NCBI GenBank assembly: GCA_918797485.1
Contig: CAKKNE010000006.1
Location: 2,170,001 to 2,234,000 of the forward strand
Reading direction: 5' to 3'
From: Pelagomonas calceolata
Taxonomy: Eukaryota
Length of the DNA: 64,000 bases
The stretch's first letter is position 1, and each line of letters opens with the position of its first letter. A program made the position numbers and the translations under genes. Under the pieces are notes generated by a model, which did not search any database, was not told the DNA's origin, and saw nothing but the letters and a program-made list of their open reading frames with translations. Below are positions 9,808 through 63,713 of this stretch, piece after piece.

Positions 9808-10155
9808 GGCTGCCCATCGATGGCGCGTTGCATCGATGGCGTGGTTTGAGGCTACCCGATGGCAGGAGACGTTAAACGCGCTTAGCCTAGCCTCGTTTTT
9901 ACCGAAAAACGCGCGGGCGTAAAGCCTAGTGTGTCAATTAACTCTAGATGGCAGAAACTTTTTCTCCCCCGCATTGATGCAGATGGCCACGACAGGCTGC
10001 CCAAACGACTGTTCTCCCCCGCATTGATGCCGCTTCCGACGCATTGGACAAGCCTCGAATACTCGCTACTGCCCTGTGAGCAGCAAAGGCAAAATGGTCG
10101 CGTTATAGAGGCCTCGTGCCATTGGCCGGGGATTCTCTAGCTTGGCGTCGTGAAA

Positions 10156-11346
10156 ATGGTCGCCATAGCGGTCGGGCTGGGCGCCCTGCTGCTCCGGGCA
10201 GCGGCGGCCTGGCACCCGACGCCGCACAGTAAGGCGCCGAACGCGACGGCCGGCGAAGAGCTCTTCGAGCGCGCGGTCGCGGCCGTGCGGGGCTGCGCCG
10301 CGCAAGACGACGCGTACCTCTCGTGCGCGCTGGGCACCGAGGCGGGCGCGTGGGACTTTCACTTCCATCGCTTCGGGCCCGCGCAGATCACGAACCCCAC
10401 GGGGCGCGGCGGGCAGCTGACGCTCGTCGAGGGCTTCGACGTGCCGCACTGCACGAGCGCGCGGGCGCCGGGCCGCCGGATCCGCCGCGCCTGCCCGCTC
10501 GCGCCCCGGGGCTTCAACGACACGGAGGCGGTCCTCCTCACGCACCCCTGGGGCGGCAACTTCCAGCATTACGTGTTCGAGCTGCTGCCCCGGGCCTGGC
10601 TCGCCGCCGAGCTGTTGCGACGGGCGCGTCCCGACGACGCCGAGCCCGCGTTCGTGGTCCACCTGCACAAGTACCGGCGGACGGGCTTCTTCGCGGACGC
10701 CGCGCGCCTGGCCGTGGGCACCGAGATCGAACTTGTTGTTGATCAGGAGGGCCGCGGGGGCTTCCGGAACGTCTGGGTGCCGCCCTACGTCGTCGAGAAC
10801 TTCCGGAGTTGGTCCGCGCTGGGCCTGAAGGCCCTGCGACATATGCATGCGAAGGCCCAGGAGACGTACGTAACGAGGCCGCCGCGGCCCGGGACGATCG
10901 TCTACTTCACGCGCCGCGACGCAAGTGCCGGGAAGGGACGGGCCCTGGTCAACGAGGCGGAGCTCATCGAGGCCCTCGCGGGCCGCGGGGCCCGCATCCT
11001 GGACTTCAGCGCATTCCCGACGCTCGGCGACCGCGTCCGCGGCCTCGCCAACTACTCCGTCGTGGTGACGCCGTTCGGCGCCGGCTTCGCGAACTTGGTT
11101 TTTGCGCACCCCGGCGCGCGGTGGCTCAGCGTCTGCCCGCCGACGATGTGCAATTCGCACGAGCGGTTCTTCCTCGACCAGCTCACCAGCGCCCTGGGCT
11201 TCCGGACCGGCGTGCAATACACGGCCGCGACCGCCGCCCGCGCCGTCAACGACGGCGGGGGCGGCGCCGGCGACCCGAAGAACGTGCCCTACAGCGTCGA
11301 CGTGCCCGCCGTCGTTCGTGCGGTCGAGGGGCTCGCGAGAAGTTAA
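10156..11346 (+). CDS. Glycosyltransferase family 61-like protein
   Basis: Signal peptide; NFQHYVFELLPR, RALVNEAELIEAL, TPFGAGFANLVF (HGAGLxN-like). Confidence 0.8.
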   Translation: MVAIAVGLGALLLRAAAAWHPTPHSKAPNATAGEELFERAVAAVRGCAAQDDAYLSCALGTEAGAWDFHFHRFGPAQITNPTGRGGQLTLVEGFDVPHCTSARAPGRRIRRACPLAPRGFNDTEAVLLTHPWGGNFQHYVFELLPRAWLAAELLRRARPDDAEPAFVVHLHKYRRTGFFADAARLAVGTEIELVVDQEGRGGFRNVWVPPYVVENFRSWSALGLKALRHMHAKAQETYVTRPPRPGTIVYFTRRDASAGKGRALVNEAELIEALAGRGARILDFSAFPTLGDRVRGLANYSVVVTPFGAGFANLVFAHPGARWLSVCPPTMCNSHERFFLDQLTSALGFRTGVQYTAATAARAVNDGGGGAGDPKNVPYSVDVPAVVRAVEGLARS

Positions 11347-11688
11347 CTATGTGGTCGCTATTATTATTGCGCTAGGACCAGACCTCTAATTACAGCCGGT
11401 GCGCGCTACTTTAGCCTGCTAAAAGTGGTAAATACAGGAGCACCAAAAATTCCACACCACGAGTCCTGGAGCCCGGGCGACGCGTGCACCAAGCCGCGTC
11501 GGGCGTTCAATTCCCCTCTAGAAAAAGAACCGAAATCAGGCAAAGCCCCCCGAGGGTGGCCGGCCAGGCCTGCAGGCCGGGCCGCCCACAGAGCAGAAAG
11601 GTGCCGGTACTGCTCGAACCGGCATTGGGTCCGCCGCCCGACGACACGTGCGCATCGATACCGCATCATCGAGGCTGCCCCAACTGCG

Positions 11689-12144
11689 ATGGCTACCTCC
11701 ACTAGACCTGCCTGGATTGCGGCAGCAGAACGACGCCTCGCGGGCGCACCAGACGTTGTGGAGGAAGCGCCACGCGCCGCTTCCGCCGCGGCGCCGCCGT
11801 CGCCGCGCGTGCCCGAAACGGCGGCGCCGGTCGTCACCGCCGCGGCGCTCGAGGCCGAGTACGAGGCCGCGCTCGCGGCCGCCTCGGCCGTGAACAACGA
11901 CGACGGCGACGCCTCGGCCGTGAACAACGCCGCCGACCGAATTGCCGCCGCGGCGCACCGCCGCCGCGGCGCCCGGGCCGCGTTCCTCACGGGCCTCGGG
12001 GAGGAACCCGACCACGAGCTCTACCCGAACTATCAGCACGAGCGGCGCCTGCGCCGCGCCGCGGGCGAGTCGGACGAGGCCTGGGAAAAGCGTATGCTGG
12101 CGGGGTCGCCGACGCGACGGCGGCGGCCGCCGGGGGCGGGTTAA
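11689..12144 (+). CDS. Hypothetical Ala-rich protein
   Basis: ATG at 11689 within ORF 11425-12144; coding-like GC3; internal 18-bp duplication GCCTCGGCCGTGAACAAC (11881, 11911). Confidence 0.45.
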   Translation: MATSTRPAWIAAAERRLAGAPDVVEEAPRAASAAAPPSPRVPETAAPVVTAAALEAEYEAALAAASAVNNDDGDASAVNNAADRIAAAAHRRRGARAAFLTGLGEEPDHELYPNYQHERRLRRAAGESDEAWEKRMLAGSPTRRRRPPGAG

Positions 12145-12157
12145 ACATACAGCATTA

Positions 12158-14038: not shown

Positions 14039-14221
14039 ACTCGCAGCATGTGACGGGCTGCCCGAGTTGCGAGGTAGCTAGAGACGACGGGCTCTAGACT
14101 TATAATTTCCCGCTCCAAGCTTAAAATCAGATTCTGTACCCAGCAACCAAGGGGGACTAATATACACGTATACTTAGACGCCCTTGGAGCTGCCCGAGGG
14201 CTGCCCATAGGCATAATATGC

Positions 14222-19155: not shown

Positions 19156-19176
19156 CTAGCGCATGTAAGACACTAG
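19156..19176. promoter_or_regulatory. CTAG-N13-CTAG intergenic motif
   Basis: CTAGCGCATGTAAGACACTAG between divergent starts. Confidence 0.6.
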
Positions 19177-20389: not shown

Positions 20390-20996
20390 TTGTGTGTAGC
20401 AGCCGCGGCCGTGTAGAGACCGGCGTCATCGGGGCGGTTTCGCGCAGGTGCGTCTCGGCCGGCCGACGCGGCGCGCCGTCGTTGGAGTGCGCGTGCTGCC
20501 AGGTGTGTGTGGAGCGTCCGTTCGATCGCTAACGGCCGCGGCGCCGCAGGAGTTCGGGCGGCGGCAAACGAGGGTCCTAGTGATTGGAGCTGTTGGGCAC
20601 TGGTAGCCACCGGTCGGCATCGCGCTCGACATCTCTGCACAGCGGTGGTCTTTTAGCACTGCCCAGCTGTATGGAAAGGGCCCGAGGCGTGCTGATTTGC
20701 CAAAAACGCCGAGCGCTGAGCGGTTGGAGGAAAACCCGAATTGATTTGTTCGTTCGAAACCATCTCAATAATGAGTGTACAAGAGTGTTCTCAGCGCCGT
20801 CAGAGCGTGGCACCGCCGGAGAAAACCCGCATTCTCAGCCAAGCTTGCAAAAAGACTGCGCGGCATTGTCCATATCACAGCCGCGGTGTGCCCGCACGGC
20901 TGGTGTAGTAGTGCTACGTGTCGCACTGCTGCCACCACAACAGCTGGCGAGCCCTGCGCTGCCTACGAGCAGCACAGGCAGCAGGGCAGCTATAGC

Positions 20997-25789: not shown

Positions 25790-26719
25790 TTTGTTCTTTG
25801 TTTGCGTCGCGCGCTCGGCGCTGCACCGCAGCGCTGTGATGTTTGGCCTGTTGCGAGGGCGCTACGGCACCGGCGATTGTAAGCTCTCCCAGTCCGCTGC
25901 GGGCCGGCTCTGGGAAGTTGTACGACGCGCTCTTTGCGTGTGGTTACGCGTCTATAGACGTGTTTTGGTCGATTTGCGCCGGGGCCGCAAACTAGCGTGC
26001 ATAGAGACACTAGTGCGACGGAAAATCTGATTCTCGGCGGAGGTGTCTTGGAAGGCTCGTCAGAAGCCAGAATAGACTCTTGCGATTCTGTTGTCTGCAT
26101 TCGGCCGCGCCCAAAAGCTGAGTTTTGGCATAAGACGAGGCGCGAGGCAGCTGGCCACGCCGCTGCGCTGTGAAGTAAAGCACGGCGTCTAGGAAAGATT
26201 GTATTTGCGATTCGCTGCCCTCTACCTCCGAAACCGCCCCAGCGGGTGCGCTGAGGAGGCTGTACCGCAACCCTCACCGATTGGAGCCATTCTCTGCCGA
26301 GCGGCGCGGCGCGGGCTTGCGCGCTCTCTAACGGCGGCCCAATGCGCTGCTGCGCGCCGTGCGCTTCCGCCGGCGGGACTGGCGGCGGTACTGCTGGAAC
26401 CGCGGCGCGACCGGGTCGTGTTCCGCGCGTTCCGCTCAGTCAAAAGCCCAGCCCGAGCGTTGCGCCGCGGGCTCGCGCGCGCGCTGCTCCGGATGGCTCA
26501 CTCAAAAACGCCACCCGAACGGGGCGCCGCCGGCTTGTGATGCTCTCCGCGGCTCAAACCGCCTGAGGCGCCGCCGCCTCACTCAATTCCCGCCCTTGCG
26601 CCGCCGCCGATTGCTGTTGCCCCACGCGATGCCCCCCGCGCAGGTGAGAAGTCGACGCGACCGCTGCGCCGGTGACTTGAGTGCTAAACGTCGACGCCAC
26701 CGCGCCGACGACTTGAGAA

Positions 26720-27109: not shown

Positions 27110-27507
27110 GCGCTTGGCGGCCGCGCTATTCTGCCGCGTCTGTCTCGGCGGCGGCGCGTCCCGCATTAATACATAGTCTAGATTACTCTCCTTTTGTGCG
27201 CGTCGGCGGCGCCGGGTGGGAGCGCTAGCGCGTCCTGGCTCTACGTCCTGGCCCGGGAATGGCACCCCGCGCGCGACCAGTAAACGCGACGCCGTCGCTC
27301 CGGTCTCTCTCTCCATTCGCCCTTTCTGCGGGTATATCGTTACGGTGATAGGACTAGTGGCGGAGCCTCTCTCGGCTAGTGCCTTACAGGGTCTAGCTGC
27401 TGTTCTTTGCCATCAGATTTAAGGCTGCCACGAAGCACCTCTGCCGGTGACGGCATCGATTTTGTAAGGAGTGTGCTGCCAGCTCTCTCGACGCCGCAGC
27501 AGATTCA

Positions 27508-29736: not shown

Positions 29737-29757
29737 CTAGTGCCTTACAGCCGCTAG
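29737..29757. promoter_or_regulatory. CTAG-N13-CTAG intergenic motif
   Basis: CTAGTGCCTTACAGCCGCTAG between divergent starts. Confidence 0.6.
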
Positions 29758-36492: not shown

Positions 36493-36859
36493 CCTAGTGT
36501 TTGGGCTGCTTCTCGTGCTTTTCGCTTGGCACAACCGCTGCTTTTTGAGGCAGGTCTTTCAGCTAGTGGGTCGATACACTAGCGCCGAACCGGGCTGTGT
36601 TTCCATGCGTCCTATGGAGCCATGGGGCGCGCGAGCATGAGCCCTCAGAGCCGACTTTCGCACTTGCAAAAATAGGCGATTGGCAAGACAGCACATATCA
36701 AAACGCGGCCTCGCTAAGCAGCGTCTCCGCGAGCAAGCGCGCCAGCAGCACCTCTCAAAAGCCTCACAGCATTGCCGCGTGCAACGCTTTGAGCCAACGC
36801 CGTCGACGCGGCAGGATCAAAGCAGCTGACCTTGCAAAAAGCAAAAGACCACACACAAG

Positions 36860-40463: not shown

Positions 40464-40485
40464 CTAGCGGCCAGTAAGACACTAG
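40464..40485. promoter_or_regulatory. CTAG-N14-CTAG intergenic motif
   Basis: CTAGCGGCCAGTAAGACACTAG about 90 bp upstream of the start at 40373. Confidence 0.6.
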
Positions 40486-42647: not shown

Positions 42648-42669
42648 CTAGTGTCTTACACGCCGCTAG
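42648..42669. promoter_or_regulatory. CTAG-N14-CTAG intergenic motif
   Basis: CTAGTGTCTTACACGCCGCTAG about 100 bp upstream of the start at 42545. Confidence 0.6.
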
Positions 42670-45123: not shown

Positions 45124-45149
45124 ATGTTTGTTGTCATACAAGTCGGTCC

Positions 45150-45581: not shown

Positions 45582-46157
45582 CGTTATACGGGCGTGGGTA
45601 CGCCGCGAGTAGCAGACTTGCGTGTTACGGCTTTCTGCTTTGGGAATCGCACGGCGCGTGCGCGGGAGTCCGAAAAAGTTACTGCTCGGCTGGCGATGGT
45701 GACTGCGAGTCTGCCCCGCGTCGCTGTTTCGTTACTAATTCGCTAGGCAAGTGTGCGAGCCGTGTCTTTTACAGGCTCCGCGAAGACTAGCGTATCGAGA
45801 GACACTAGCACGAGGCAGACGCCGTCCTGAGGCTTACAGACGGGTCGAGAGGATTCGGAGGAGGTCGCGGGAGCGCTGGGGGAAGGCCGCGCGACCAGCA
45901 GCTCGGAGCAAAACGCTGCCTTCGTCTCCGCAGGCAAGCTCATCTTCGGGGTCCTTAGAAGACAGACACGGCAGCGCACGAGGGCTTCTGAAAAGAACTG
46001 TCGGGGTCGGACACAGACGCGAACTCTAAAGAACCGGAGGCCCGCAGATCCAAGAGGGAGAGCATCCAAGTGCTACTCACCTCGGCAGCCGACGCCCGCC
46101 CTCTGACGACCTCAAACGCGCCGACGACTCGAGCCGACGACCAAAAAAACAAACAAC

Positions 46158-48932: not shown

Positions 48933-48937
48933 TAGTA

Positions 48938-52597: not shown

Positions 52598-52882
52598 CTC
52601 TCCTCTATGCTCCTCTGTTGCCCGTCGACGAAGGAGGTCTCGCGGGACGCCTTGTGTCTCTATTGGTAGCGCCTTGGGCGGCTGGTTTTGCGCAGAGCTT
52701 GGGCTGCCCGGCGGGCGCGCGGGGGCGGCGCCGCCGGCGGAACGCGCAGCCGAGCACGCGTCTGGCCGCGGGAGCCCGCGTACGCGTCCTTTACGGCCCA
52801 CAGCGCACCACCAGCGGAATTGCGGGCTAGAGTCTTACGGGCCGCTAGGTCCGCACGGCTGCCCCTCCTCACTGTTTCGACC

Positions 52883-53590: not shown

Positions 53591-53875
53591 CCCCCGTGGC
53601 CCCTTCAGCTGAGTAAGTGGGTAGCTGTTACTTGGATTTTGGGAGCGCTAGCACCTTTCAGCTGATGCAACAAAACCCGTACAAGCTGCAGAGCGCCTGT
53701 CCAGGTCTGCAGCCTGTGCTACAGGACAAGCGGAGCAGTAAGAAGTTGCATTCGTTCAGGTCATCATACGTGCGCATTCGTTCCGTTTGAGTTAGGCGCC
53801 TGTTAGCTGTATAATCGATCGTGCACACCGGAGAGCACTCTCCCAAACGCCATCCGTGCGACATTGCGAGAACGC

Positions 53876-54670
53876 ATGGCTCGACACGTCGTCGCCGCGG
53901 CCCTCTGCTTCGCCGCTGCATGGGCATTGCTGCATAACCAACGCACACGCAACCTACCACTGGCCATCGCCGCGAAAAAGACGGTCTGGACCTTCGACGA
54001 GGCGCGCGACTACGCGCGGTCTTTCGGCTTCGGCTCCAAGGACGAGTACGTCGAGTACCGCTGCCCCGGCGCGTATGCGCTACCTCGAAACCCGGTCGAG
54101 GCGTTTGGTGAGCGCTGGACGTCATGGGAGGACTACCTCGGGCTTCGTACAGGTGTCGATGATGCGGAAGTCGTGACGCGGCCGGGCTTCGAGCAGGTGC
54201 TGTTCGTCGAGATGGGCTGGGGCGCCGACCAGCACGGCCAGAACGCGACCAAGGCGTGCGTCCGCGCGGCTCGGAATGCTATCGAGTTTAACAGCATCCC
54301 GTCGATCCGCGCGGAGCCGGCGTCCTCGACTCGTCGACGCCGTCGCGCGCGTCGCGTCGATAGCGTCGGGGGGGGGGGACGCCGTCGCCGCGTGTTGCGT
54401 CGACGGCGCCACACTGACCATGCGAACGCAGGCGCGCTCGTGCCCAATGGCTACGAGGGCATGAAGCTGGCCGTGGACCTCGCCGTGCCGGAGGCGTACC
54501 ACGAACATATCGACGTCGACGCCGTCGGGGCGGTCTTCCCCTACGGCGCCGTCTCAATACGACTGCAGCCCGGCGGCGCGGAGTTCTCCTCGGGCATCGC
54601 GATCCCGGCCATGGGTGATAAAGGAGACGCGCTCGTCGTCGCGCTGTGCTGCGTGACCGTGGGCTACTGA
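53876..54670 (+). CDS. Lin0512-family domain protein with N-terminal integrase-repeat-like unit; in-frame intron 54309-54431
   Basis: FDEARDYAR..LPRNP..WTSWEDYLG; FVEMGWGADQHGQNATKACVRAARNAIEFNSIP..VFPYG..VTVGY. Confidence 0.8.
   Translation: MARHVVAAALCFAAAWALLHNQRTRNLPLAIAAKKTVWTFDEARDYARSFGFGSKDEYVEYRCPGAYALPRNPVEAFGERWTSWEDYLGLRTGVDDAEVVTRPGFEQVLFVEMGWGADQHGQNATKACVRAARNAIEFNSIPSIRAEPASSTRRRRRARRVDSVGGGGRRRRVLRRRRHTDHANAGALVPNGYEGMKLAVDLAVPEAYHEHIDVDAVGAVFPYGAVSIRLQPGGAEFSSGIAIPAMGDKGDALVVALCCVTVGY
54309..54431 (+). mobile_element. Decayed introner-family in-frame intron (GC-AG, 123 nt)
   Basis: GCGCGGAG vs GCGCGCTC (5/8); CCGGCGTCCT..GAACGCAG; contains GTCGCGTCGATAGCGT (family core, reverse orientation). 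Confidence 0.75.
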
Positions 54671-54826
54671 TGTCGCCTCGCCATTGGCTGCGGCGGTCGC
54701 GCTCGCACCACGAAAGGAGGCAAGATGGATCCGTCGCCCTCGACGCCATCGCCGTAATCTGTGTATGTCTGTCCCCGAACACGTGATAGAAAGAACACAT
54801 CCCTACGCGCCCCCTACGACGAAGCC

Positions 54827-55339
54827 CTAGCCGAGGACGATGCCCTCGTACTTCTGCTGGAACCACTGGACCGCCTGGTCCTTGGTGATGCGGTGCTTGA
54901 CGCCGACGCGCGCCTGGCGCGCCTTCCGCCGCGCGACGCGGAAGCCCGGCCGCTCCAGGCACACGTAGAAGTCCATGCCGTAGATGCCGGTCGTCGGGTC
55001 GTACTTGATGCCGAGGTCGATGTGCTCCGTCACGCCGAAGCCGAAGTTGCCCGTCGCGCTGAAGTTCTTGCGCTGGAGCTCGTACTCCTTCACCTTCAAA
55101 CCGCGCTCGAGAATCTCCGTCGCCTTCTCGCCGCGGACCGTCACGTGGACGGCGATCTTCTCGTTTCTTCGGATGGAGAAGCCGCGGCACGTGTACCGCG
55201 CCTTCGAGTAGACCGGCTCCTGGCCCGTGAGCTGCTCGAGCACGCGCGCCGCGCGCGTCAGTCGATCGCCCGACTCGCCCACACAACAATTGAGGATCAG
55301 CTTCGAGACCTTGATCTCGCGCATCTTGTTCTCCGCCAT
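54827..55339 (-). CDS. RPL11: 60S ribosomal protein L11 (uL5)
   Basis: [46 protein letters not shown]. Confidence 0.99.
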
Positions 55340-55990
55340 GGTTAAGGCTGGAGTCGCGACCTGTGCGTGCGTTGGTCTCGTCGTCGCTCTGTGTGTGTCT
55401 CTCTCTCTCTCGCGGGTCCGGCGGGCGGCGTTCGAGCGCCAGCAGGGCGATCCGGAGCGACCGGCGGCCGCAGCGGTGGCGTAGTAAGCGGTGGCTTGCC
55501 TCGGCGGCGCAGCGGGCGGCCAGCGGCTGCAGCAGGGCTATGCAAAATGCTGCTTGGCTGAAGTGCCTCTGTGCCCGCTCGCTGATGCCGCACGCTATAG
55601 CAGCGCTTGCCAGACCGTCTCAATCACTTCTCGGTTGCTGCACGCGTCCCGGATTTTGCAGACTCCGTCGCTAACCTCGTTTACACGGCGTCGCTTTTAC
55701 GGCTCGAGATGGCGATGCGCCGCAGGCGTCTTACAAAAAGCGACTCGAGAGGCCTCCAGGCGCACTCGGAGCTGTCGCAGGAGTCGCCTCAAGCATTCTG
55801 ACGCGTAGCAGGCTAGCGGCGTGAGACACTAGCAAGGCAGGCAAGCCGAGTCGAGGAGCTGATCGCAGCAACGCGGTCCGCTCCGGACAACTTGAGCCAG
55901 GATAAACTAGCACGACTGCTTTAGAGCCGGTTGCAGCGGTTCTGAGCCGGCTGCAGCGAGCGGCTGTGCTCAAAAGCGTCGTGCACATTA

Positions 55991-56332
55991 ATGCCGGCTC
56001 GCACCACGAACGCCGCGCTGCAGCAAAAACTCAACGAGTTGTCCGCCTTCGCAGCCAAAAACGAACGGAAGGCATTTGTCGAGGCCTTCGTGCCCCTGGA
56101 CTGCTCTCCCGAGGACCAGTCAAACTACCTGTCGGTTTTGACAGGAGACGACGCCGAGTGGGCCGCGCTCTCCTCTGAAATTCAGGCCATCGCCGCCGGC
56201 GCGACCGTCGAGAAGATCGAGGGCGACCAGACTACAAAGGCGGTCTTCTTCTTCCCGCACCCTTTTCTCGAGCGGTGCGACCGGGAGGTGGTCTTCGTGT
56301 GCGTTGACGGCGAGTGGCGCGCGGAGGGCTAA
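55991..56332 (+). CDS. Hypothetical 113-aa globular protein
   Basis: ATG ORF with complex sequence, ends DGEWRAEG. Confidence 0.65.
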   Translation: MPARTTNAALQQKLNELSAFAAKNERKAFVEAFVPLDCSPEDQSNYLSVLTGDDAEWAALSSEIQAIAAGATVEKIEGDQTTKAVFFFPHPFLERCDREVVFVCVDGEWRAEG

Positions 56333-56727
56333 TGGATCCGCAAACGACTGGTGGCGAGCGGTCGTCACGGGAGCGACGCGACAGGAGCCGCAGCCGGGGA
56401 AGTAGCTCCAGGCGGCGCCGACGCGGCCGCAGCAGGAGTAGGAGCCGCAGTCACGACCGCAGGAGACGTCGCAGCCGCGACCGCAGCCGCAGCCGTCGTG
56501 AACGGCGTCGCGACGACGACGACTACCGGCGGCGCGATCGCGACCGACGCCACGACGACGACACGCCGCGCCCGCGACGGGAAGACCGGCGCCCGCAGCG
56601 CCTCCGCCCCAACGCCAGCTCGTTTGGCGCGTTCCTCAAGGGAGTCGTCAGAGAGCGAGAACGTGCTGATGACGAGCTCCGCCGCGCGGCCGACAAGCAG
56701 TTGGCCCGGATCGAGTTCGGCGAGTAA
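56332..56727 (+). CDS. Small RS/RD-rich protein
   Basis: MDPQ..RSRSRSRS..FGAFLKGVVRERE; its ATG overlaps the upstream TAA. Confidence 0.55.
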   Translation: MDPQTTGGERSSRERRDRSRSRGSSSRRRRRGRSRSRSRSHDRRRRRSRDRSRSRRERRRDDDDYRRRDRDRRHDDDTPRPRREDRRPQRLRPNASSFGAFLKGVVRERERADDELRRAADKQLARIEFGE

Positions 56728-56753
56728 TTCAATTTGTTGTCTACACCGGCCCC

Positions 56754-58121
56754 CTACAAGTGCCCCCCCAGCGATGGCGGCGCGGGTGCCGGCGCCTCGG
56801 TCGCAGCAGGCGCCGGCGCCTCACTAACGGCAGGCGCAGGCGCCTCGACGGGCGCCGGTGCCGGCGCCGGCGCCCCGAGCGGCGCAGAAACGGGCGCCTC
56901 GGCGAGCCGCTTGACGGGGCTCCGCACGACGCCCGGCGCCTCGGCTTCCGAGGGGCAGGGCGACGCCAGCGGCTCGTCGGCGAAGGGCGGGTCCTCCAAG
57001 CTCCGCGAGGACGACGACGACGACGACGAGGACGAGGACGACGACGGCGGCGTCGGGGGCGGCGGCCGCGCGGCGAGCTCCTCCGCCGCGGTCACATGTC
57101 GCGACGCGATCTGCACGTCTTTCAGAGCCTCGGCGACGGCCTGGCGTTCTTCCCGAGGATCCGTGCCGGCGTCGCCGACGTCGATTCGCTGGATACCACT
57201 TAACAAAGAAGTGAGCTCGGGCACGCTCGGGTCCTTCCTCGATGCGATCTTCTCGGGAATGCGGATCGAGGCCGTCGACGGCCTTCCGTCGCCTTGGTGT
57301 TGTTTTTCGTACGCTTGGACCTCCCGCAACAATCGGTTGACCTCCTTGTCCCGCTTATCCAATAAAGCTTCTCTCTCATCCAATTCCTGCTGCCTCTGGA
57401 CGGCCTTTTCTCTTTCCTTCGCAACTAGAGCTTCCACCTCCTTCACAGAAAGCGCCATCCTTCGTTGCACCTCGAAGTCCCTCTGCACGAGTCGGTCCTC
57501 CAACGCCTGGACCCGCTCCCTAGCTTCCTGCTCTTTCCGCTGTAACGTCGCCTCCATGTTTTGTTCTTCATGCTCCCAGTCCCGCTTCTGTTGCTCTAGA
57601 CCCCGTAAACAAGCCGCGACCTCGGCGTGCTGGGCGTCCAAAATGCCCTGGCCCTTGCCGAAGGAACACTTCGACGCGATCGTCACCTCGAGGTGCTTCG
57701 CGACGCCCTTGACCGACCCTTCGAGGGCCCGTTCCCGCGCGGCCACTTTGACCTCCTTGAGCCGCAACCGCGCCTCATCATCACGGAAAGACATGATCTT
57801 CTGCGACGCTTTTTCTTCCCTTTCAACAGCGCGACTTTCGGTGGCGGCCTCGCGCGCCTCCGCCGCCGCGATGCTGCTTCTAGCTCTTAACAAAACTTCG
57901 GCGTCGAGGCCCTCGATCTTCGCCCTCATGTCCGCCTCGAGCTTCTCGAGCTCGGCCTCCCGCCTGGCGAAGTCGTCCTCCTGCTCCTGCACCCAGGCCG
58001 CCTTGTCCGCCACTTCTTGGTCATGGCGCCGTCGTGCCTCGGCCTCGGCCTGCTCCTGGGCCAGGCGCGCGGCGACGACCTCGGGGTCCTCCTTCTTGCC
58101 CTTCTTGCCCTTCTTGGGCAT
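56754..58121 (-). CDS. Coiled-coil protein with Pro/Ala-rich tail
   Basis: MPKKGKKGKK start; long E/R/A helical region. Confidence 0.75.
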   Translation of the reverse strand: MPKKGKKGKKEDPEVVAARLAQEQAEAEARRRHDQEVADKAAWVQEQEDDFARREAELEKLEADMRAKIEGLDAEVLLRARSSIAAAEAREAATESRAVEREEKASQKIMSFRDDEARLRLKEVKVAARERALEGSVKGVAKHLEVTIASKCSFGKGQGILDAQHAEVAACLRGLEQQKRDWEHEEQNMEATLQRKEQEARERVQALEDRLVQRDFEVQRRMALSVKEVEALVAKEREKAVQRQQELDEREALLDKRDKEVNRLLREVQAYEKQHQGDGRPSTASIRIPEKIASRKDPSVPELTSLLSGIQRIDVGDAGTDPREERQAVAEALKDVQIASRHVTAAEELAARPPPPTPPSSSSSSSSSSSSSRSLEDPPFADEPLASPCPSEAEAPGVVRSPVKRLAEAPVSAPLGAPAPAPAPVEAPAPAVSEAPAPAATEAPAPAPPSLGGHL

Positions 58122-58369
58122 GGTCGTGCGGTCGTGAGTTTATGCGGGCTGCCTCGTTGGCGTTTGGCGCCGTCGATGCGATTGGCAGCACGCAACGCCG
58201 TCAACGACACACAGCGCTGTGCCGCCAGCTTCCGACCCGGCCTGGGGACGGGTGGGAGGCCCTCCCGAGGCCTCGCTGGCCCCGGGGCGCGGGGGGGGCG
58301 TCTTTTCTCGTGGCGTGCGGGTTCGGGGCCTCGAGCCGATCAAAACGAAGGAGACACAAGGCGATACAC

Positions 58370-61345
58370 TTAGACGAGGTCCCCACCTTTCGGCGTCCCA
58401 AGGAAGGACTCCCGCTCCTCGTCGCACGGCGCGTCGCGCCCGAACCACCTCCTACACCGCCGCTCGCCCGTCTTCTGAGAGAGGTCAGGCGGCGCATAGA
58501 GCCGCAAAGCCAAGGAAGACAGCACGACACTAACCGAAGAGAAGACCATGCAGGCCGCCGCCGCGGCCGGCGGCAGTCTTTGACGTGTTGCGGGATAGAA
58601 CGCCCCCGCCGCCGCCGGGACCAAGACCAGGTTGTAGCACGTCGCCCAGGCGAAGTTCAGGCGGATGCGGTTGTATGTATGTCTAGCCAAATCTAAGGCC
58701 GTCGATACACCTCGCAAGTCGTCGCCAACTAAAACCACGTCCGCGGCCTCGACCGCGACGCCGCTCCCGGCACCCAACGCCACTCCCACATCGGCTTGAG
58801 CTAACGCAGGAGCGTCATTGACACCATCACCGACAAAGACCACCAAACCGTCGTTCTGGAGTTCCGTGATCAAATCGCGCTTATCTCGCGGTAATTGCCC
58901 TGCTCTAACGCGGTTGCGCGACAGGCCCACTTGTAGAGCGACGGCGTCCGCCGTTTGCGAGGAATCGCCCGTGCACATCCACACGTCTATACTCTGACGG
59001 TGGAGCCACGCTATCACTAAAGACGCTTCGGGTCGCGGCGCGTCCGCGATAGCTATGGACCCGGCGAAGCGCCGATCGAACGCGACGTGGACCACCGTGG
59101 CAGCTTCTTGGCGCCATCTCTGGGTCGTTTCATCCTCAACCACGTCCACGCCCAGCTCCCGCAAGAACCGCGACGAGCCCACCGCCACACTCGCCCCGAG
59201 GTCGCCCACATTGGCCTGCGCGCCTAGTCCCTCAACATCCTTCGCGTCGTCTACTCGCAATAACTTCAGTCCTCTTTGTTGCGCCGCTCTCCGCAACGCG
59301 CCAGCTAAAGGGTGCGACGAGTGCTGCTCGCATGAGGCCGCCGCTCGTATCAAATCATCTTCGGTCATCTTGTACGCTTGACAACCGACGACGCGGGGCT
59401 TACCTTGCGTAAGTGTCCCGGTCTTGTCAAACACCACGACCTTGCACGCCGCCGCGTGTTCCAGGGCCGCGCCGCCCTTCGCTAAAACACCTAGATTGGC
59501 ACCGACGCCGGTGCCGACCATGACCGCCGTCGGCGTCGCCAAACCCAACGCACAGGGGCACGCCACGACGACGACAGAAACCCCAAACAACAAAGCAAAC
59601 AGAAACGTGTCGCGCTCGTCGAGCCAGCTCTCCGGGACGTTACCTGTCTCTGCGGCGATGTACCATGCCATAAACGTTGTAAGACCCAGAAACACAACAC
59701 AGGGCGCGAAGACCGACGCGATGCGGTCCGCAAAATTTTGTATGGGCGCCTTGTCCAGTTGGGCGTCTTCGACTAAACGAGCGATCTGCGCGACGCACGC
59801 GTCGCCGCCGACGGCCTCGATTCTGATATAGCAGCTCCTCCCCATGTTCTTTGACGACGCAAAAACTTTGGCGCCGCGCGGCCGTTTCGCGGGTTTGGAC
59901 TCTCCGGTCAGCGCCGACTCGTCTAATCTCGCTGAGCCACCGCCCTCGACGAGAATAACAACCCCATCCGCGGGCACGGCTTCTCCTTGTGATACTCTAG
60001 CAACATCACCAACTTCGCAGGCGTCCGCATCGACGTCGCCCGCGACGCACTGAGCTGCCAGCGATCGGAAGTCCCGCTCTAAGGCTGAAGCGTCCTCATT
60101 GACATCGAGCCTTGATAATTTAGTAGCGACGTCCCGCAACTCCGACGAAGGTAACAGAGTAGCGGAGGCCGGCCGTAAAGCCAGCAGCGCCTCGACGGCG
60201 TCGCCGGTGCGCTGCTTCGCCCTGCTTTCCAGGAACTTTCCCAGCGTCACGAATAATAAGAGCATGGCCGCCGTGTCGAACAGTAAGTGCTGGTGGTTCG
60301 CGTCGTACACACAGCAGTCTATGAGTGAATAGAAGGAGTACGTGACGACCGTGGACGTAGCTACAACTATCAGAGAATCCATACCCCAAGAACAACTCCG
60401 GAATTGCGTGTAGGCGTTCCGGTAGAAGCGCCCGCCCACAAAGATCTGGACACTTAACCCGCAGACACTTGCGACTAAGGCCTCGATCGTGAACATCCCG
60501 TGGCACCCTATACCTGTATGCCAAAATTCCTGTCCGGGACCGATCATCCCACCCCACTTCGCCACGAAGATCGGGATCGAGAGGAGGAGTGCTACTTTCA
60601 AGCTGCGCCACCAGCCTGCCACTTCCCGTTGCGACGCTGCGGCGGGCGACTCGTCCCGCGTCGCGAGTGAACAGCGGAAGCCGCATTTCTTAACAGCGGC
60701 GACGCAGTCCGCGCGGTCTCCTTCTTGACTAAGAACGACTCGTGCTCTATGAGTAGCCACAGACACATCCGCTCGTAACACGCCCGGCACTTCAGATAAA
60801 GCGCGCTCGACTTTCGAAGAGCAAGCAGCACAGGACATGCCCTCCACTTTCAAAAGTAGGGCGCCGTCATTCGTCACGTCGACGGCCTCGCACGCGTAGC
60901 CTTCCGCGGTCACGGCCCGCTCGACGTCTCTCGCGTTACAATCTGAGGAAGCGAGCAGCCGCCCGGCGTTGACGTTCACTTTCGCTGAACCACAGCCCGC
61001 CTTGAGCGCGGCCTGCTCGACGCGCCGCGCGTCTGTCAAAGTGCGCATGCCGTTCACCCGGAACTCCCGCGAACTTTTCAGGGATACGGTAGAGGGCGGC
61101 GCCGGTTTTGTCTGACTAACCTCGGCGCCAAATCCCACACATTCCACCGCATCAATTAGTAAAGCCACGTCCACCTCGCCCCAGACGCTCGCGTTGTGGT
61201 CCGCGAAGGACGCCTCCGCTCGACTGACGCCGGGTACGTTGCGCAGCGCGTTCGCTACCGTACTACCGCAGGACTGCTGGCACATCATGCCCTCTATGGT
61301 CAAGACGTGGGTCGGCGGGGTCGAGGCGGGGGTCATCTCCAGCAT
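58370..61345 (-). CDS. P1B-type copper-transporting ATPase
   Basis: HMA motifs GMMCQQSC and GMSCAAC, TGES, CPCALGLATP, DKTGT, HP, GDGVNDAP, YN. Confidence 0.96.
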   Translation of the reverse strand: MLEMTPASTPPTHVLTIEGMMCQQSCGSTVANALRNVPGVSRAEASFADHNASVWGEVDVALLIDAVECVGFGAEVSQTKPAPPSTVSLKSSREFRVNGMRTLTDARRVEQAALKAGCGSAKVNVNAGRLLASSDCNARDVERAVTAEGYACEAVDVTNDGALLLKVEGMSCAACSSKVERALSEVPGVLRADVSVATHRARVVLSQEGDRADCVAAVKKCGFRCSLATRDESPAAASQREVAGWWRSLKVALLLSIPIFVAKWGGMIGPGQEFWHTGIGCHGMFTIEALVASVCGLSVQIFVGGRFYRNAYTQFRSCSWGMDSLIVVATSTVVTYSFYSLIDCCVYDANHQHLLFDTAAMLLLFVTLGKFLESRAKQRTGDAVEALLALRPASATLLPSSELRDVATKLSRLDVNEDASALERDFRSLAAQCVAGDVDADACEVGDVARVSQGEAVPADGVVILVEGGGSARLDESALTGESKPAKRPRGAKVFASSKNMGRSCYIRIEAVGGDACVAQIARLVEDAQLDKAPIQNFADRIASVFAPCVVFLGLTTFMAWYIAAETGNVPESWLDERDTFLFALLFGVSVVVVACPCALGLATPTAVMVGTGVGANLGVLAKGGAALEHAAACKVVVFDKTGTLTQGKPRVVGCQAYKMTEDDLIRAAASCEQHSSHPLAGALRRAAQQRGLKLLRVDDAKDVEGLGAQANVGDLGASVAVGSSRFLRELGVDVVEDETTQRWRQEAATVVHVAFDRRFAGSIAIADAPRPEASLVIAWLHRQSIDVWMCTGDSSQTADAVALQVGLSRNRVRAGQLPRDKRDLITELQNDGLVVFVGDGVNDAPALAQADVGVALGAGSGVAVEAADVVLVGDDLRGVSTALDLARHTYNRIRLNFAWATCYNLVLVPAAAGAFYPATRQRLPPAAAAACMVFSSVSVVLSSLALRLYAPPDLSQKTGERRCRRWFGRDAPCDEERESFLGTPKGGDLV

Positions 61346-61552
61346 CTTTGGGTGTGCCTGGCGCCTCGGCGGCGTGAATCCACTGGAAGACTACTTTGTC
61401 TAAAGCTCCCTTAGCCTTCGTGCAGCGGTCGTCCGCGCTCGAGGACAGCCTCCGCAGCTATGAATGTCCCGCTGCGCAGTCCCAGCCAGCGTCGAGTTGA
61501 TAGCTATATATGACCTCTGCAGCGCGTGCCGGCCGAAGGAAAACGTGATTAT

Positions 61553-61574
61553 CTAGCGGCATGTAAGACACTAG
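61553..61574. promoter_or_regulatory. CTAG-N14-CTAG intergenic motif
   Basis: CTAGCGGCATGTAAGACACTAG upstream of the Cu-ATPase. Confidence 0.6.
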
Positions 61575-61598
61575 CAACAAACTAATTGAACCACAGAG

Positions 61599-63269
61599 TT
61601 AAGGGAACAGCTCCCCGCACCGCGCCGCGAATTTCGACGCCCTCACCGCCGCGTCTCCAAAAAAAGCGACGCCGGCGCACGCGCCCGCGACGGCGCGGAA
61701 GCGTTGCTGCGCCTCGGCGCACCGCCGCACGCGGTCCTCCCGCGACAGGTCCACACCCAGCGCCGGCGCCGTCGCCGCGGCGGCGATCGCCGGGCCGTGC
61801 GAATCCAAAGCGCATGAACAAGCGTCGACGACCAGCACGCAGACCTCGCCCGCCCGGTCGGATTCCGCGGCGCAGCACGCCTTGAGCCACCGCTCGGCGC
61901 ACTCGGCCAATGTGGACGCGGCGTCGAGCGTCAGATCAGTCGCGTCGACGCGCTCGAGGAAGTCGCCGACGGCTTCCCAGGAGAAATTCCGTCCACTCAA
62001 CGCGCGGAAGGCCTCTTCACCATTACCCGCGCCCCACTGTTTCGACGCATGCTCCAGTTGTTCAAGGCGCGCCTCGAGCTCGTGCTTCGCCTTGCGGCCC
62101 ATCAGTATCTCCGTGATGGCGTCGTCGACGCTCGCACCGTCAGCTTTCGGCTGCGACGCTCGTCTTTTCACATCTTCAAGGTCGCTCGTCGACAGGCGCC
62201 GTCGATCTGTCTTGGTGTTGCGCGGCGCGAGGCCCCTTCTCTGTGAAGGCGCGAAGACTACAGAAGGAGAGGCCTTCGCGTCGATCTTTGACGCAGGCGG
62301 TTCCTCCACGGGAGACGCCTCCTTGGCCTCGGCCTCATCACTCACGTCGTCCTCGAAGTCGTCCTCGTACGCGAGTGACGCATTGTATACCCGGACGACG
62401 CCGTCCCTGCGGCACGCTACTGTACAGTCGTCGCCGCATTTGAGAGCACAGACACCCGCCAAACCGCCCTCGATTTCTCGACTGATGGGTTTCACATTGG
62501 CCACGTTCCACTGTCTCATCCCATTCTCGGCCGCCACGACGAGCGACCGCCCCGACGACGAGAACGCACATTCTCGCACCGCGTGCGCTTCGAGAGATGC
62601 AGGATGCGTCGCTCCTAATTCTTTCCACTGCTCCAAGTCATACAATCTAGCGGTTCTGTCCGAGCAAGAAGCAGCCAGCACCAGTTCCGTAGGTGAAAAC
62701 ACAAGAGTCTTCGCAAACACCGCTTGGGCTCGTCTCGAAGCCCCGAAGCCCTTGAGCAATTTCCCGGCAGTTAAATCCCACACTCTAATTTGACCATCAC
62801 CTCGAGAGGCCGACGCGAGCCATCTGCCGTCCGGAGAGAAACACACGGCATCGACCTCGCCGCCGTGGCCCTTGTAGGTCTGCAGGCAAGCTTTTTTCCG
62901 GGCGTCCCAGACTTTCACCGTCGAATCGGCCCCGCCAGTCGCCACGAATTCTCCGTACGGGTGAAAACGACAGCAATTCACTTGGTTCCGGTGGCCCGTC
63001 AACCCTCGCGAGGCCTTGCCTTCTCGTAAATCGTAGACTCGAGCCGAACCACCTTCGCAGCCGCTCAACACGTGGGTCTCGTCATGATCTAGGTCGAGGC
63101 AGGTGATCGACGACGTGCTGGCCGCGAAGGACTGGAGGTGCTCCGCGTCTTTTAGTCTCCAAACACAACAGCGCCGTTCCTGGCCGCCCGTCGCGATGAT
63201 GGACGAGCCGAGCGCGATGCAGTTGATGGGTGCCGGCGAGGCGACCCACTCTTGTTGGAGGGCGGCCAT
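61599..63269 (-). CDS. KATNB1: Katanin p80 WD40 subunit
   Basis: LTGHR..FHPYGEFVATG..VKVWDARKKACLQTYKGH..FSPDGRW..WDLTAGKLL; C-terminal helical domain. Confidence 0.9.
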   Translation of the reverse strand: MAALQQEWVASPAPINCIALGSSIIATGGQERRCCVWRLKDAEHLQSFAASTSSITCLDLDHDETHVLSGCEGGSARVYDLREGKASRGLTGHRNQVNCCRFHPYGEFVATGGADSTVKVWDARKKACLQTYKGHGGEVDAVCFSPDGRWLASASRGDGQIRVWDLTAGKLLKGFGASRRAQAVFAKTLVFSPTELVLAASCSDRTARLYDLEQWKELGATHPASLEAHAVRECAFSSSGRSLVVAAENGMRQWNVANVKPISREIEGGLAGVCALKCGDDCTVACRRDGVVRVYNASLAYEDDFEDDVSDEAEAKEASPVEEPPASKIDAKASPSVVFAPSQRRGLAPRNTKTDRRRLSTSDLEDVKRRASQPKADGASVDDAITEILMGRKAKHELEARLEQLEHASKQWGAGNGEEAFRALSGRNFSWEAVGDFLERVDATDLTLDAASTLAECAERWLKACCAAESDRAGEVCVLVVDACSCALDSHGPAIAAAATAPALGVDLSREDRVRRCAEAQQRFRAVAGACAGVAFFGDAAVRASKFAARCGELFP

Positions 63270-63713
63270 CTTTTGTTGTGGGGCTGCTTTGCTGCTCACG
63301 TTTCGTCGCGGGATCGACGCGTCGCGGGGCAGCCCCCCCAGGAATGGAGGCGTCGCCGCGCTGCACGATTTGAACAGCAGGTCGCGTGGGCCGGCGTTCG
63401 CAGGAATGCGAGGCGTGCGCGGCGCGGCGTGGGCTGCTGCTGGATTTGAATAGCCAGTGGGGTGCGGCTGCAAAACTGAAAAATGCTAGTGTGTCTATGA
63501 ACTAGCTCCAGCCTCCCCAATAGGCGTCCGCACGATCACATACGCGCAAACCTAGACATACTGTCCTTCGATCGACGTACCAGCCTCCGCGAAAGCCCTG
63601 CTTGTATACGTAGGCCGGGTTGCAGCTTTGGCCCAACCAGTACTCCAGAGCCAAAAGAGTCCCAGTCCATCCGCGGCGGGGATAAACGCTAGACATCGTA
63701 AAAAGACAGCAAA

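What the first reader, a model, noticed from the sequence alone, without database searches (positions are those of the whole stretch)
9926..63505. Recurrent bipartite CTAG-N12-14-CTAG element upstream of genes
Seen 14 times, all intergenic and 5' of a start, in both orientations: 9926, 14078, 19156, 25992, 27376, 29737, 36563, 40464, 42648, 45787, 52827, 55813, 61553, 63486. Consensus is about CTAGCGGC(N)TGTAAGACACTAG; the 9926, 14078, 36563 and 63486 copies match the core only weakly. It precedes unrelated genes and often sits in divergent promoters. Inference: binding site of a general regulatory or nucleosome-excluding factor, or a lineage-specific core promoter element. I do not recognise it as a described motif.
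Basis: partly seen in the sequence, partly recalled or inferred. Interest (0 to 1): 0.75.

Follow-up and report, generated by a model that had tools for sequence, protein, structure and literature searches.

The report
Recurrent 28-bp promoter element, marine alga
A conserved ~28-bp DNA word (CTAGCGGC-YT-GTAAGACACTAG plus short flanks) sits between genes in nearly half of the promoter-bearing gaps of this compact, GC-rich marine eukaryote's genome, with transcripts starting about 20-40 bp from its edges, so it likely acts as a lineage-specific, two-directional core promoter element bound by a still unknown protein.

Summary
CTAG-N10-16-CTAG occurs 16 times against 2.3 expected, and CTAG pairs show a sharp spacing peak at 12-14 nt (16 pairs, about 0.6 expected). 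Ten copies share a strong consensus, three are degenerate and one is doubtful. Two more pairs inside an ORF are unrelated.

At least 122 marine metagenome contigs carry exact copies, each with different flanks. They extend the consensus to (A)G-CTAGCGGC-YT-GTAAGACACTAG-CAAG(C). One orthologous contig, 83-86% identical, keeps the motif while the DNA to its right diverges.

On my hand-built gene map all ten strong copies lie outside ORFs: 7 of 15 divergent gaps, 3 of 7 tandem gaps and 0 of 15 convergent gaps.

Stranded RNA-seq and transcript contigs put RNA 5' ends 17-39 nt from a motif edge at seven loci, on either side. Four of five predictions made before the second read-lay were met.

Best reading: a DNA-level, orientation-independent promoter element, likely placing initiation complexes on one or both sides. 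No factor, binding or nucleosome data exist. I found no description in print. It is a new variant of a known kind, of moderately high interest.

The parts
19156..19176 (+). Strong copy CTAGCGCATGTAAGACACTAG in the divergent gap between an Ost-alpha-like transporter gene (-) and an EF-hand gene (+)
25992..26013 (+). Strong copy CTAGCGTGCATAGAGACACTAG in the divergent gap between the TBP gene 24977-25789 (-) and the + transcript 26149-27164
27376..27396 (-). Strong copy in a tandem (+,+) gap. Downstream-gene contigs start at 27413 and 27424, and raw-read 5' ends lie at 27431/27432
29737..29757 (-). Strong copy in the divergent gap between a MYND/RINGv/TPR gene (-, ATG at 29670) and the PsbP gene (+)
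40464..40485 (+). Strong copy (exact consensus) in a divergent gap. The - gene contig reaches 40436. There is + strand RNA to the right. One deep contig (X4 record 17) runs through the motif
42648..42669 (-). Strong copy in a tandem (-,-) gap. TyrRS transcript contigs end at 42692-42711, before the motif. The next - strand ORF starts near 42545 and was almost silent in the run laid
45787..45808 (+). Strong copy in a divergent gap. The - strand RNA 5' end lies at 45766 (26 molecules), 21 nt from the motif edge. Contigs of the + gene start at 45911-45923
52827..52848 (-). Strong copy in a divergent gap. The contig of the kelch/EGF gene (-) reaches 52808, 19 nt from the edge
55813..55832 (+). Strong copy in a divergent gap. 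+ RNA 5' ends lie at 55866/55871 and a contig starts at 55852. The uL5 gene (-) starts at 55696/55700, 113-117 nt away. The motif is kept in orthologous contig L087
61553..61574 (+). Strong copy (exact consensus) in a tandem (-,-) gap. Contigs of the downstream P-type ATPase gene reach 61526/61528. Upstream WD40 gene contigs end at or beyond 61628
9926..9947 (-). Weak copy CTAGAGTTAATTGACACACTAG (as read on the - strand) in a divergent gap
36563..36582 (+). Weak copy CTAGTGGGTCGATACACTAG in a divergent gap. The + gene's 5' end at 36702 lies 120 nt away, behind an A/T-rich patch of its own
63486..63505 (-). Weak copy in a divergent gap. The + RNA 5' end lies at 63533 (28 nt from the edge), and contigs of the WD40 gene (-) reach 63456/63460 (26-30 nt)
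14078..14097 (.). Doubtful copy CTAGAGACGACGGGCTCTAG in a divergent gap; it has the CTAG pair but little of the core

Best explanation
This is a recurrent, conserved ~28-bp DNA element found only in promoter-bearing gaps between genes, and it likely works as a lineage-specific core promoter element: an unidentified sequence-specific protein, predicted to bind as a dimer or through two domains, would set transcription initiation about 20-40 bp from the element on one or both sides. SHOWN: the element has two arms that are imperfect inverted repeats, GCTAG-CGGC and GACA-CTAGC (half-site GCTAGYGKC). A conserved but length-variable spacer, mostly (C/A)TGTAA, joins them. The element is dispersed in unique contexts and absent from ORFs. 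Genes on its flanks point away from it. Transcript 5' ends and contig ends stop 17-39 nt short of its edges, on either side. It precedes functionally unrelated genes in roughly 45% of the promoter gaps in this window. INFERRED: it acts as double-stranded DNA through a bound factor. The two arms and the +/-1-nt play in the spacer suggest two recognition modules. The near-symmetry would explain why it serves either side, and both sides in head-to-head gene pairs. Promoters without it, or whose start lies more than 100 nt from it, use other elements such as A/T-rich patches near -30.
For: 1. Non-random and specific. There are 16 CTAG pairs against 2.27 expected, with a spacing peak at 12-14 nt. 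A gapped two-module scan finds 11 hits, 10 of them the strong copies; one strong copy (25992) falls outside the mismatch limit, 36563 is included, and one hit (23967) is a likely false positive.
2. Dispersed, not a repeat unit. Conservation ends after G at -1 (0.87) on the left and C-A-A-G-C (0.75, 0.75, 0.75, 0.47, 0.53) on the right. The same 243 kb holds 15 further near-copies against 1-2 in shuffled controls. The scan of about 596 billion bases of prokaryote genomes gave 4 hits, near the roughly 3 expected by chance (my arithmetic); the viral collection gave 0.
3. Promoter placement. Ten of 10 strong copies lie outside ORFs that cover 88% of the window. They occupy 7 of 15 divergent, 3 of 7 tandem and 0 of 15 convergent gaps. 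In metagenome loci the flanking coding strand points away from the motif on 60 of 79 callable sides. Of 14 loci callable on both sides, 4 are divergent, 10 tandem and 0 convergent. An outward ORF starts within 700 nt on 87 of 120 evaluable sides, mostly 50-300 nt away, against 48% at random positions.
4. Distance to RNA starts. From I predicted five starts (note). One search then gave: 45766 (predicted 45759-45770); contig ends at 61526/61528 (predicted 61525-61536); 63533 (predicted 63522-63533). For motif 52827 no data were shown for the predicted + side, but the - side contig ends 19 nt from the motif. For 55813 the predicted - side start was NOT met (55696/55700, 113-117 nt away), while the + side starts at 55852-55871. 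With 27413-27432 and 40436, seven loci have a start 17-39 nt from a motif edge. Five are on the CGGC side and three on the ACTAG side; 63486 counts on both.
5. Orientation does not decide the side. In tandem gaps the served gene lies on the CGGC side at 27376 and 61553 and on the ACTAG side at 42648. In metagenome tandem loci the split is 7 ACTAG to 3 CGGC.
6. Conservation. In L087, orthologous to 55516-56161 at 83-86% identity, the motif is retained and lies closer to consensus, while the sequence to its right up to the next gene is unalignable.
7. General use. Flanking genes include TBP, PsbP, ribosomal uL5, a P-type ATPase, kelch/EGF, RINGv, EF-hand and WD40 proteins.
8. No single-strand structure. 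The DNA fold gives -0.4 kcal/mol, z = +1.26. There are no Rfam or tRNA hits in the window.
Against: No binding protein, chromatin data or functional test exists; the role in transcription rests on position alone. RNA starts come from ordinary poly(A) RNA-seq fragment ends and assembled contig ends, not from cap-selected data. My reading of the tool's 'end' rows as RNA 5' ends on both strands is itself an inference. I justify it by 63533, 36702 and 55866/55871 having no same-strand coverage to their left and matching contig starts. The 'begin' rows at 30435 and 48758 are not explained by it. Several flanking genes start more than 100 nt from the motif: 25992 right (136), 29737 right (101, one contig only), 45787 right (103-115), 55813 left (113-117) and 36563 right (120). 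The element is therefore not the -30 element for every neighbour. One deep contig runs through motif 40464. RNA contigs from other loci carry the motif (14 contigs at 40473; 5 at 61553), so it is sometimes transcribed. No sharp initiator signal appears at a fixed offset in the 122 loci. Eight of 22 promoter gaps in the window have no copy, strong or weak. The gene map is hand-built. The absence from convergent gaps is not significant given their short total length.
Confidence: 0.55

Rival explanations
1. The motif is the site of a general regulatory or boundary factor, comparable to yeast Reb1/Abf1/Rap1 or fly BEAF-32/DREF/M1BP sites. Such a factor would open a nucleosome-free region, insulate neighbouring genes and perhaps block read-through. 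Start sites would follow only indirectly from the edge of the open region.
For: The motif is very frequent and precedes unrelated genes. It sits mid-gap in head-to-head pairs. In 3 of 3 tandem gaps the upstream transcript's contigs end before the motif: 27164, 42692-42711 and at or beyond 61628. Several neighbouring genes start more than 100 nt away, a distance typical of such factors. The motif is long and information-rich, like a transcription-factor site rather than a TBP or TFIIB contact.
Against: At seven loci starts lie only 17-39 nt from the motif edge, closer than the roughly 80-150 nt I recall for yeast factors of this type (recalled, not tested). No chromatin data exist. This rival overlaps with the best explanation and differs only in how directly the factor places the initiation complex.
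Confidence: 0.25
2. The core TGTAAGA is a lineage-specific weak TATA variant bound by TBP. The GC-rich CGGC arm would act like a TFIIB recognition element, so the element would be an elaborated TATA/BRE module and not the site of a new factor.
For: The core centre lies roughly 28-45 nt from mapped starts on either side (my arithmetic). The highly expressed uL5 gene, which starts 113-117 nt from the full motif, has its own TTTTTGTAAGACG beginning about 35-39 nt upstream of its 5' ends 55700/55696. The window encodes a TBP with the DNA-contact stretches of yeast TBP conserved in alignment: QNVVATV, KFSAVVMR, TALVFQSG, ELFPGLIYR, TFVSGRIVLTGA.
Against: A canonical TBP would not explain the near-invariant CTAG arms, the conserved flanks G(-1) and CAAG, or a 28-bp footprint. 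TGTAAGA is a poor match to TATAWAWR (recalled consensus). The window copies vary most in this very core (GAGAGAC, GTGAGAC, ATAGAGAC), while the ACACTAG arm is the best kept part.
Confidence: 0.08
3. The motif is a trace of a mobile element: a solo terminal repeat, a tiny MITE, or a 14-nt insert flanked by a duplicated CTAG target site.
For: There are many dispersed copies. The form CTAG-14 nt-CTAG formally resembles an insert with a 4-nt target duplication. The spacer length varies.
Against: Nothing beyond about 28 bp is conserved in 122 unique contexts. No copy lies in an ORF or a convergent gap. The motif is kept at an orthologous site in a relative 83-86% identical. Its distance to RNA starts is regular. 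I know of no transposition mechanism for a 14-18-nt unit (own knowledge).
Confidence: 0.02
4. The motif acts at the RNA level. GTAAGA resembles the local 5' splice site, so it could be a U1-type signal, a UTR element or a small RNA.
For: GTAAGAC resembles intron starts seen here (GCAAGAC at 27688). Some RNA contigs from other loci contain the motif.
Against: Mapped starts lie outside the motif and point away from it at seven loci. It works in both orientations. No splice joint begins at a motif in the joints shown. It has no stable fold and no Rfam hit.
Confidence: 0.03
5. The motif is a replication-origin recognition sequence, like the ARS consensus of budding yeasts, which also lies between genes.
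For: It is a long, specific intergenic word in a compact genome.
Against: Its density, about one per 6 kb (10 in 64 kb), is far higher than typical origin spacing (own knowledge). It is tightly coupled to gene 5' ends and RNA starts and absent from convergent gaps.
Confidence: 0.03

Closest known systems
TATA box with TFIIB recognition elements (general eukaryotic core promoter)
   Same: It lies a few tens of bp upstream of the RNA start. It has a modestly A/T-rich core (TGTAAGA) next to a GC-rich arm. A near-symmetric element could in principle nucleate initiation in either direction.
   Different: It is 28 bp long with invariant CTAG arms and conserved flanks, and matches the TATA consensus poorly. 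The organism's TBP looks canonical, which gives no reason for a changed specificity.
HomolD box of fission yeast and housekeeping-promoter motifs of animals (Drosophila Motif 1/M1BP and DRE/DREF; vertebrate ZNF143 SBS, NRF1 and BANP palindromes); all recalled, none tested here
   Same: These are sequence-specific factor sites close to the start of TATA-less, often bidirectional, housekeeping promoters. They are present at a large share of genes. Some are palindromic and some direct initiation-complex placement.
   Different: There is no sequence similarity. This element is longer and bipartite, with a spacer that varies by +/-1 nt. Its lineage and factor are unknown.
Yeast general regulatory factor sites (Reb1, Abf1, Rap1); recalled
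   Same: They are frequent in compact genomes, lie between divergent genes, precede unrelated genes, and may act as boundaries and roadblocks.
   Different: Here starts lie only 17-39 nt from the site at seven loci. Nucleosome exclusion is untested.
Oomycete (stramenopile) core promoter INR/FPR and DPEP elements; recalled
   Same: These are lineage-specific core promoter words in a stramenopile group, discovered by over-representation upstream of genes.
   Different: Those overlap or follow the start site and are oriented. This element lies upstream of the start, works on both sides and has a different sequence.

Membership tests
TATA box / BRE core promoter | Match to TATAWAWR about 25-35 nt upstream of the start | tested here: not met
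   The core is TGTAAGA, with GAGAGA, GTGAGA and ATAGAGA in window copies. The core centre lies about 28-45 nt from starts. The consensus is recalled.
TATA box / BRE core promoter | Bound and bent by TBP | not testable with these tools
   I could only show that the window encodes a canonical-looking TBP.
General regulatory factor / insulator site (Reb1, Abf1, BEAF type) | Creates a nucleosome-depleted region | not testable with these tools
   No MNase or ATAC data were available.
General regulatory factor / insulator site (Reb1, Abf1, BEAF type) | Frequent, upstream of functionally unrelated genes, enriched between divergent genes | tested here: met
   Strong copies occupy 7 of 15 divergent and 3 of 7 tandem gaps. 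The neighbours are unrelated.
Core promoter element (functional definition) | Fixed short distance to transcription start sites | tested here: inconclusive
   Seven loci have 5' ends or contig ends 17-39 nt from an edge, and four of five prior predictions were met. The data are not cap-selected, and five neighbouring genes start more than 100 nt away.
Core promoter element (functional definition) | Necessary for accurate initiation | not testable with these tools
   This needs mutagenesis or in vitro transcription.
Transposon terminal repeat / MITE | Conserved internal sequence or paired terminal repeats bounding an element, with insertion polymorphism | tested here: not met
   Flanks are unique beyond about 28 bp in 122 contexts. 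The site is conserved in an ortholog. No copy lies in an ORF.
Structured RNA / small RNA gene | Stable fold or match to a known RNA family | tested here: not met
   The fold z-score is +1.26. The window has 0 Rfam hits and 0 tRNAs.

The most novel reading that the evidence does not exclude
This alga and its relatives have largely replaced the TATA box by a 28-bp near-palindromic element read by a lineage-specific factor. The factor fires RNA polymerase II in both directions from one site, so a single word organises the head-to-head gene pairs of a whole compact genome. That could mean thousands of copies, if the window's density of one per 6 kb holds genome-wide.
Probability: 0.35. Interest if true: 0.75.

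Novelty: new variant of a known kind. Interest (0 to 1): 0.6.

Why it matters
Promoter architecture is almost unknown for marine picoeukaryotes outside a few model diatoms and green algae. The sequencing runs that hold this window include seawater metatranscriptomes, but with small shares that I did not lay.

A single, easily recognised word that marks nearly half of the promoter gaps would have three uses. It would give an immediate handle for annotating gene starts and gene-pair structure in these genomes and in metagenome contigs. It would offer a compact bidirectional promoter for building genetic tools in a lineage that lacks them. It would serve as bait to identify a possibly new general transcription or boundary factor. 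It is also a clean natural case for asking how one site sets initiation on both sides.

Tried and rejected
- Whole-genome statistics were impossible: no genome is held for this window.
- The viral collection holds no exact copy, so I found no link to giant-virus promoters.
- The prokaryote genome scan gave 4 hits. One lies in a 24%-GC Mycoplasmopsis contig and is at chance level. Three lie in marine MAG contigs of 58-66% GC. The 4.1-Mb MAG behind L123 holds only that single copy, so it gave no second long region to analyse.
- The orientation rule I first proposed (starts only on the CGGC side) was rejected. The evidence is motif 42648, starts on the ACTAG side at 52827, 55813 and 63486, and the 7:3 split in metagenome tandem loci.
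- A polyadenylation or terminator reading was rejected. Transcript 3' ends lie at variable distances and on either side of the motif, and the motif is absent from convergent gaps.
- An introner or splice-site link was rejected: intron ends in the window do not carry the motif.
- Hairpin or cruciform structure was rejected.
- The protein Atlas look-up of the TyrRS gave no lineage information.
- Earlier findings of this scan held nothing for this genome, sequence or word set.
- Literature searches found no description. I tried the exact 12-mer (0 papers); 9-10-mers of either strand (the papers listed are cloning oligos or primers); and pelagophyte terms with promoter or motif terms. The Pelagomonas genome paper has no occurrence of 'motif', 'promoter' or 'intergenic' in its main text (find only; supplements not read).
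- A paper on a pelagophyte giant virus reports 6mA methylation at CTAG-type words (passages seen). I treat this as a coincidence worth noting, not as evidence.

Full report
OBSERVATION

The window is a compact eukaryotic sequence of about 58-72% GC. It has long, mostly intron-free ORFs for typical eukaryotic proteins: kinesin, subtilase with a P domain, a kelch/EGF protein, TBP, PsbP and ribosomal uL5.

A scan for CTAG-N10-16-CTAG finds 16 sites against 2.27 +/- 1.60 in 100 dinucleotide shuffles, and none of the shuffles reaches 16. CTAG itself is not enriched (113 against 142 expected). The inner distance between neighbouring CTAGs, however, has a sharp peak at 12-14 nt: 4+3+9 = 16 pairs where about 0.6 are expected. 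Eleven other palindromic 4-mers show nothing comparable.

Alignment of the 16 sites gives four groups:
- Ten strong copies of CTAGCGGC-(N1-3)-TGTAAGACACTAG(C): 19156, 25992, 27376, 29737, 40464, 42648, 45787, 52827, 55813 and 61553.
- Three degenerate copies that keep ACACTAG and the far CTAG: 9926, 36563 and 63486.
- One doubtful copy: 14078.
- Two unrelated pairs inside ORF 20775-24926: 21069 and 22599. The latter is a plain palindrome.

A two-module mismatch scan recovers nine of the ten strong copies plus 36563, with one likely false hit. The copy at 25992 falls outside the mismatch limit. Shuffled controls give 3.45 hits on average at that loose threshold.

THE ELEMENT ELSEWHERE

The viral collection has none. 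The prokaryote genome collection has 4. For 20 fixed bases in about 596 billion bases I estimate roughly 3 hits by chance, and one of the four is indeed in a 24%-GC Mycoplasmopsis contig.

The 122 metagenome contexts are all different. Conservation stops after G at -1 (0.87, preceded by A at 0.52) on the left and C-A-A-G-C on the right. The commonest spacers are CT (52), AT (26) and T (11). The element is therefore about 28 bp long: (A)G-CTAGCGGC-YT-GTAAGACACTAG-CAAG(C). It is not part of a longer repeat.

Read as two arms, GCTAG-CGGC and GACA-CTAGC are imperfect inverted repeats (7 of 9 positions alike; half-site GCTAGYGKC). They surround an asymmetric spacer of variable length. The same 243 kb of loci holds 15 further near-copies against 1-2 in shuffles.

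One locus, L087, is orthologous to window 55516-56161 at 83-86% identity. There the motif is retained, and is closer to consensus than the window's copy, while the DNA between it and the right-hand gene no longer aligns.

WHERE IT SITS

I built a gene map by hand from ORFs, third-position GC, Pfam hits and RNA strand. It has 38 genes whose ORFs cover 88% of the window.
- All ten strong copies lie in the remaining 12% (P about 5e-10).
- Strong copies occupy 7 of 15 divergent gaps, and 4 more divergent gaps have a weak copy.
- Strong copies occupy 3 of 7 tandem gaps.
- None of the 15 convergent gaps has a copy.

The convergent gaps add up to only 1,224 nt, so their emptiness is not significant by itself.

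Independent support comes from the metagenome loci. The coding strand 200-650 nt from the motif points away from it on 60 of 79 callable sides. Of 14 loci callable on both sides, 4 are divergent, 10 tandem and none convergent. An outward-reading ORF with coding periodicity begins within 700 nt on 87 of 120 evaluable sides, mostly 50-300 nt away, against 48% at random positions; that control is inflated by internal ATGs.

The neighbouring genes have nothing in common functionally.

TRANSCRIPT STARTS

Public runs of a cultured marine organism (coded) hold the window, among them stranded poly(A) RNA-seq raw reads. In these libraries reads with the first mate on + come from RNAs of the - strand; this was checked on known genes.

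From the first lay (25001-45000):
- Contigs of the gene right of motif 27376-27396 begin at 27413 and 27424, and read-fragment ends pile up at 27431/27432.
- The contig of the - gene left of motif 40464-40485 reaches 40436.

I then wrote down five predicted starts for the second half of the window. The second lay (44001-64000) gave:
- A - strand 5' end at 45766 with 26 molecules (predicted 45759-45770).
- Contig ends at 61526/61528 (predicted 61525-61536).
- A + strand 5' end at 63533 (predicted 63522-63533).
- At 52827, no rows for the predicted + side, but the - side contig ends at 52808, 19 nt from the motif.
- At 55813, a miss on the predicted side: the uL5 gene starts at 55696/55700, 113-117 nt away. 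On the other side there are starts at 55866/55871 and a contig start at 55852.
- At the weak copy 63486, contigs of the WD40 gene end at 63456/63460, 26-30 nt from its other edge.

In sum, seven loci have a start 17-39 nt from a motif edge, on the CGGC side, the ACTAG side or both.

I read the tool's 'end' rows as RNA 5' ends on both strands. The reason is that 63533, 36702 and 55866/55871 have no same-strand coverage to their left and coincide with contig starts. This is my inference, and two 'begin' rows (30435, 48758) remain unexplained.

Results against a simple picture:
- Five neighbouring genes start 101-136 nt from the motif.
- One deep contig crosses motif 40464.
- RNA contigs from other loci contain the motif (14 at 40473; 5 at 61553).
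- No fixed-offset initiator signal shows in the 122 loci.

Orientation does not decide which side is served. In the tandem gaps the served side is CGGC at 27376 and 61553 and ACTAG at 42648, where a - strand ORF begins near 42545. The metagenome tandem loci split 7:3.

WHAT IT IS NOT

- It is not a structured nucleic acid: the fold z-score is +1.26, and there are no Rfam or tRNA hits.
- It is not a transposon end: contexts are unique, ORFs hold no copy, and the orthologous site is conserved.
- It is not a polyadenylation signal: 3' ends lie at variable distances on either side.
- It is not related to the intron ends seen in the RNA data.

MECHANISM

Position, frequency, conservation and the short distance to RNA starts make a DNA-level promoter element the best reading.

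I commit to a lineage-specific core promoter element. It would be bound by an unknown sequence-specific factor, as a dimer or through two domains given the two arms and the +/-1-nt play in the spacer. That factor would place initiation complexes about 20-40 bp away on one or both sides (confidence 0.55).

The main rival is a general regulatory or boundary factor that opens chromatin and only indirectly fixes starts (0.25). The starts more than 100 nt away, and the fact that upstream transcripts end before the motif in all three tandem gaps, speak for it.

A TBP/TFIIB reading of the TGTAAGA core is possible but weak (0.08). The window's own TBP gene (24977-25789) looks canonical in its DNA-contact stretches. 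The arms, not the core, are the best conserved part. On the other side, the uL5 promoter carries a bare TTTTTGTAAGACG about 35-39 nt upstream of its starts.

Mobile-element, RNA-level and replication-origin readings each get 0.02-0.03.

COMPARISON AND NOVELTY

Functionally the element resembles TATA-less housekeeping promoter motifs and general regulatory factor sites of other compact genomes. These comparisons are recalled, not tested. It shares no sequence with them and is unusually long, bipartite and bidirectional.

I found no description in print:
- The 12-mer is in 0 papers.
- Shorter words give only oligos and primers in the papers listed.
- Pelagophyte and promoter word searches give nothing relevant.
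- The Pelagomonas genome paper never uses 'motif', 'promoter' or 'intergenic' in its main text (supplements not read).

VERDICT

I rate it a new variant of a known kind, with interest 0.6.

Noticed in passing
window 27688-27757 and 44690-44765: Two short introns (70 and 76 nt, confirmed by RNA joints) share the core CGCCATCGACG-N-CTCGATGG, which is itself an inverted repeat; 2 matches against 0 expected. The stretch 27716-27746 is hit by thousands of partly mapping RNA reads from elsewhere (2,777 and 2,880 loose ends). This suggests a dispersed short intron or repeat family, possibly introner-like.
   Followed up: partly
window 24977-25789 (-): The gene for TATA-binding protein lies in the window. 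Its two repeats align to yeast TBP with the DNA-contact stretches conserved (E 1e-69). Its own upstream gap carries a strong copy of the motif (25992).
   Followed up: partly
window 55700-55740 (- strand): The very highly expressed uL5 (RPL11-type) gene starts at 55696/55700. It has TTTTTGTAAGACG, the motif's core without the CTAG arms, about 35-39 nt upstream. The 110 nt between this start and the full motif are strongly conserved in the orthologous contig L087.
   Followed up: partly
window 28510-29670 (-) and 35137-36534 (-): These are two paralogous MYND / RING-variant / TPR genes 6.5 kb apart. Each is followed head-to-head by a + gene and has a motif copy in the shared gap (strong at 29737, weak at 36563). 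Many RNA reads cross-map between them.
   Followed up: no
window 27688, 54309: Two of the five introns seen in RNA begin with GC, not GT (GC..AG).
   Followed up: no
window 22599-22620: A near-perfect palindrome, CTAGGAGCG-CTTT-CGCTCCTAG, lies inside the large THADA-like ORF. It is unrelated to the promoter motif.
   Followed up: no
window 48933-48943: The kelch/EGF gene's transcript appears to end within a few bases of its stop codon (3' ends at 48942/48943; the ORF's stop codon lies at 48938-48940). Its 3' end abuts the convergent neighbour's ORF.
   Followed up: no
L067 701-787; L076 462-540: Two metagenome loci carry two motif copies in the same orientation only about 40-60 nt apart.
   Followed up: no
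literature (PMC12700378, passages seen): A giant virus of a pelagophyte alga is reported to methylate adenine in CTAG-type words (CTAG, CTAGY, CYTAGC). Whether CTAG methylation touches a host CTAG-reading promoter factor is pure speculation.
   Followed up: no
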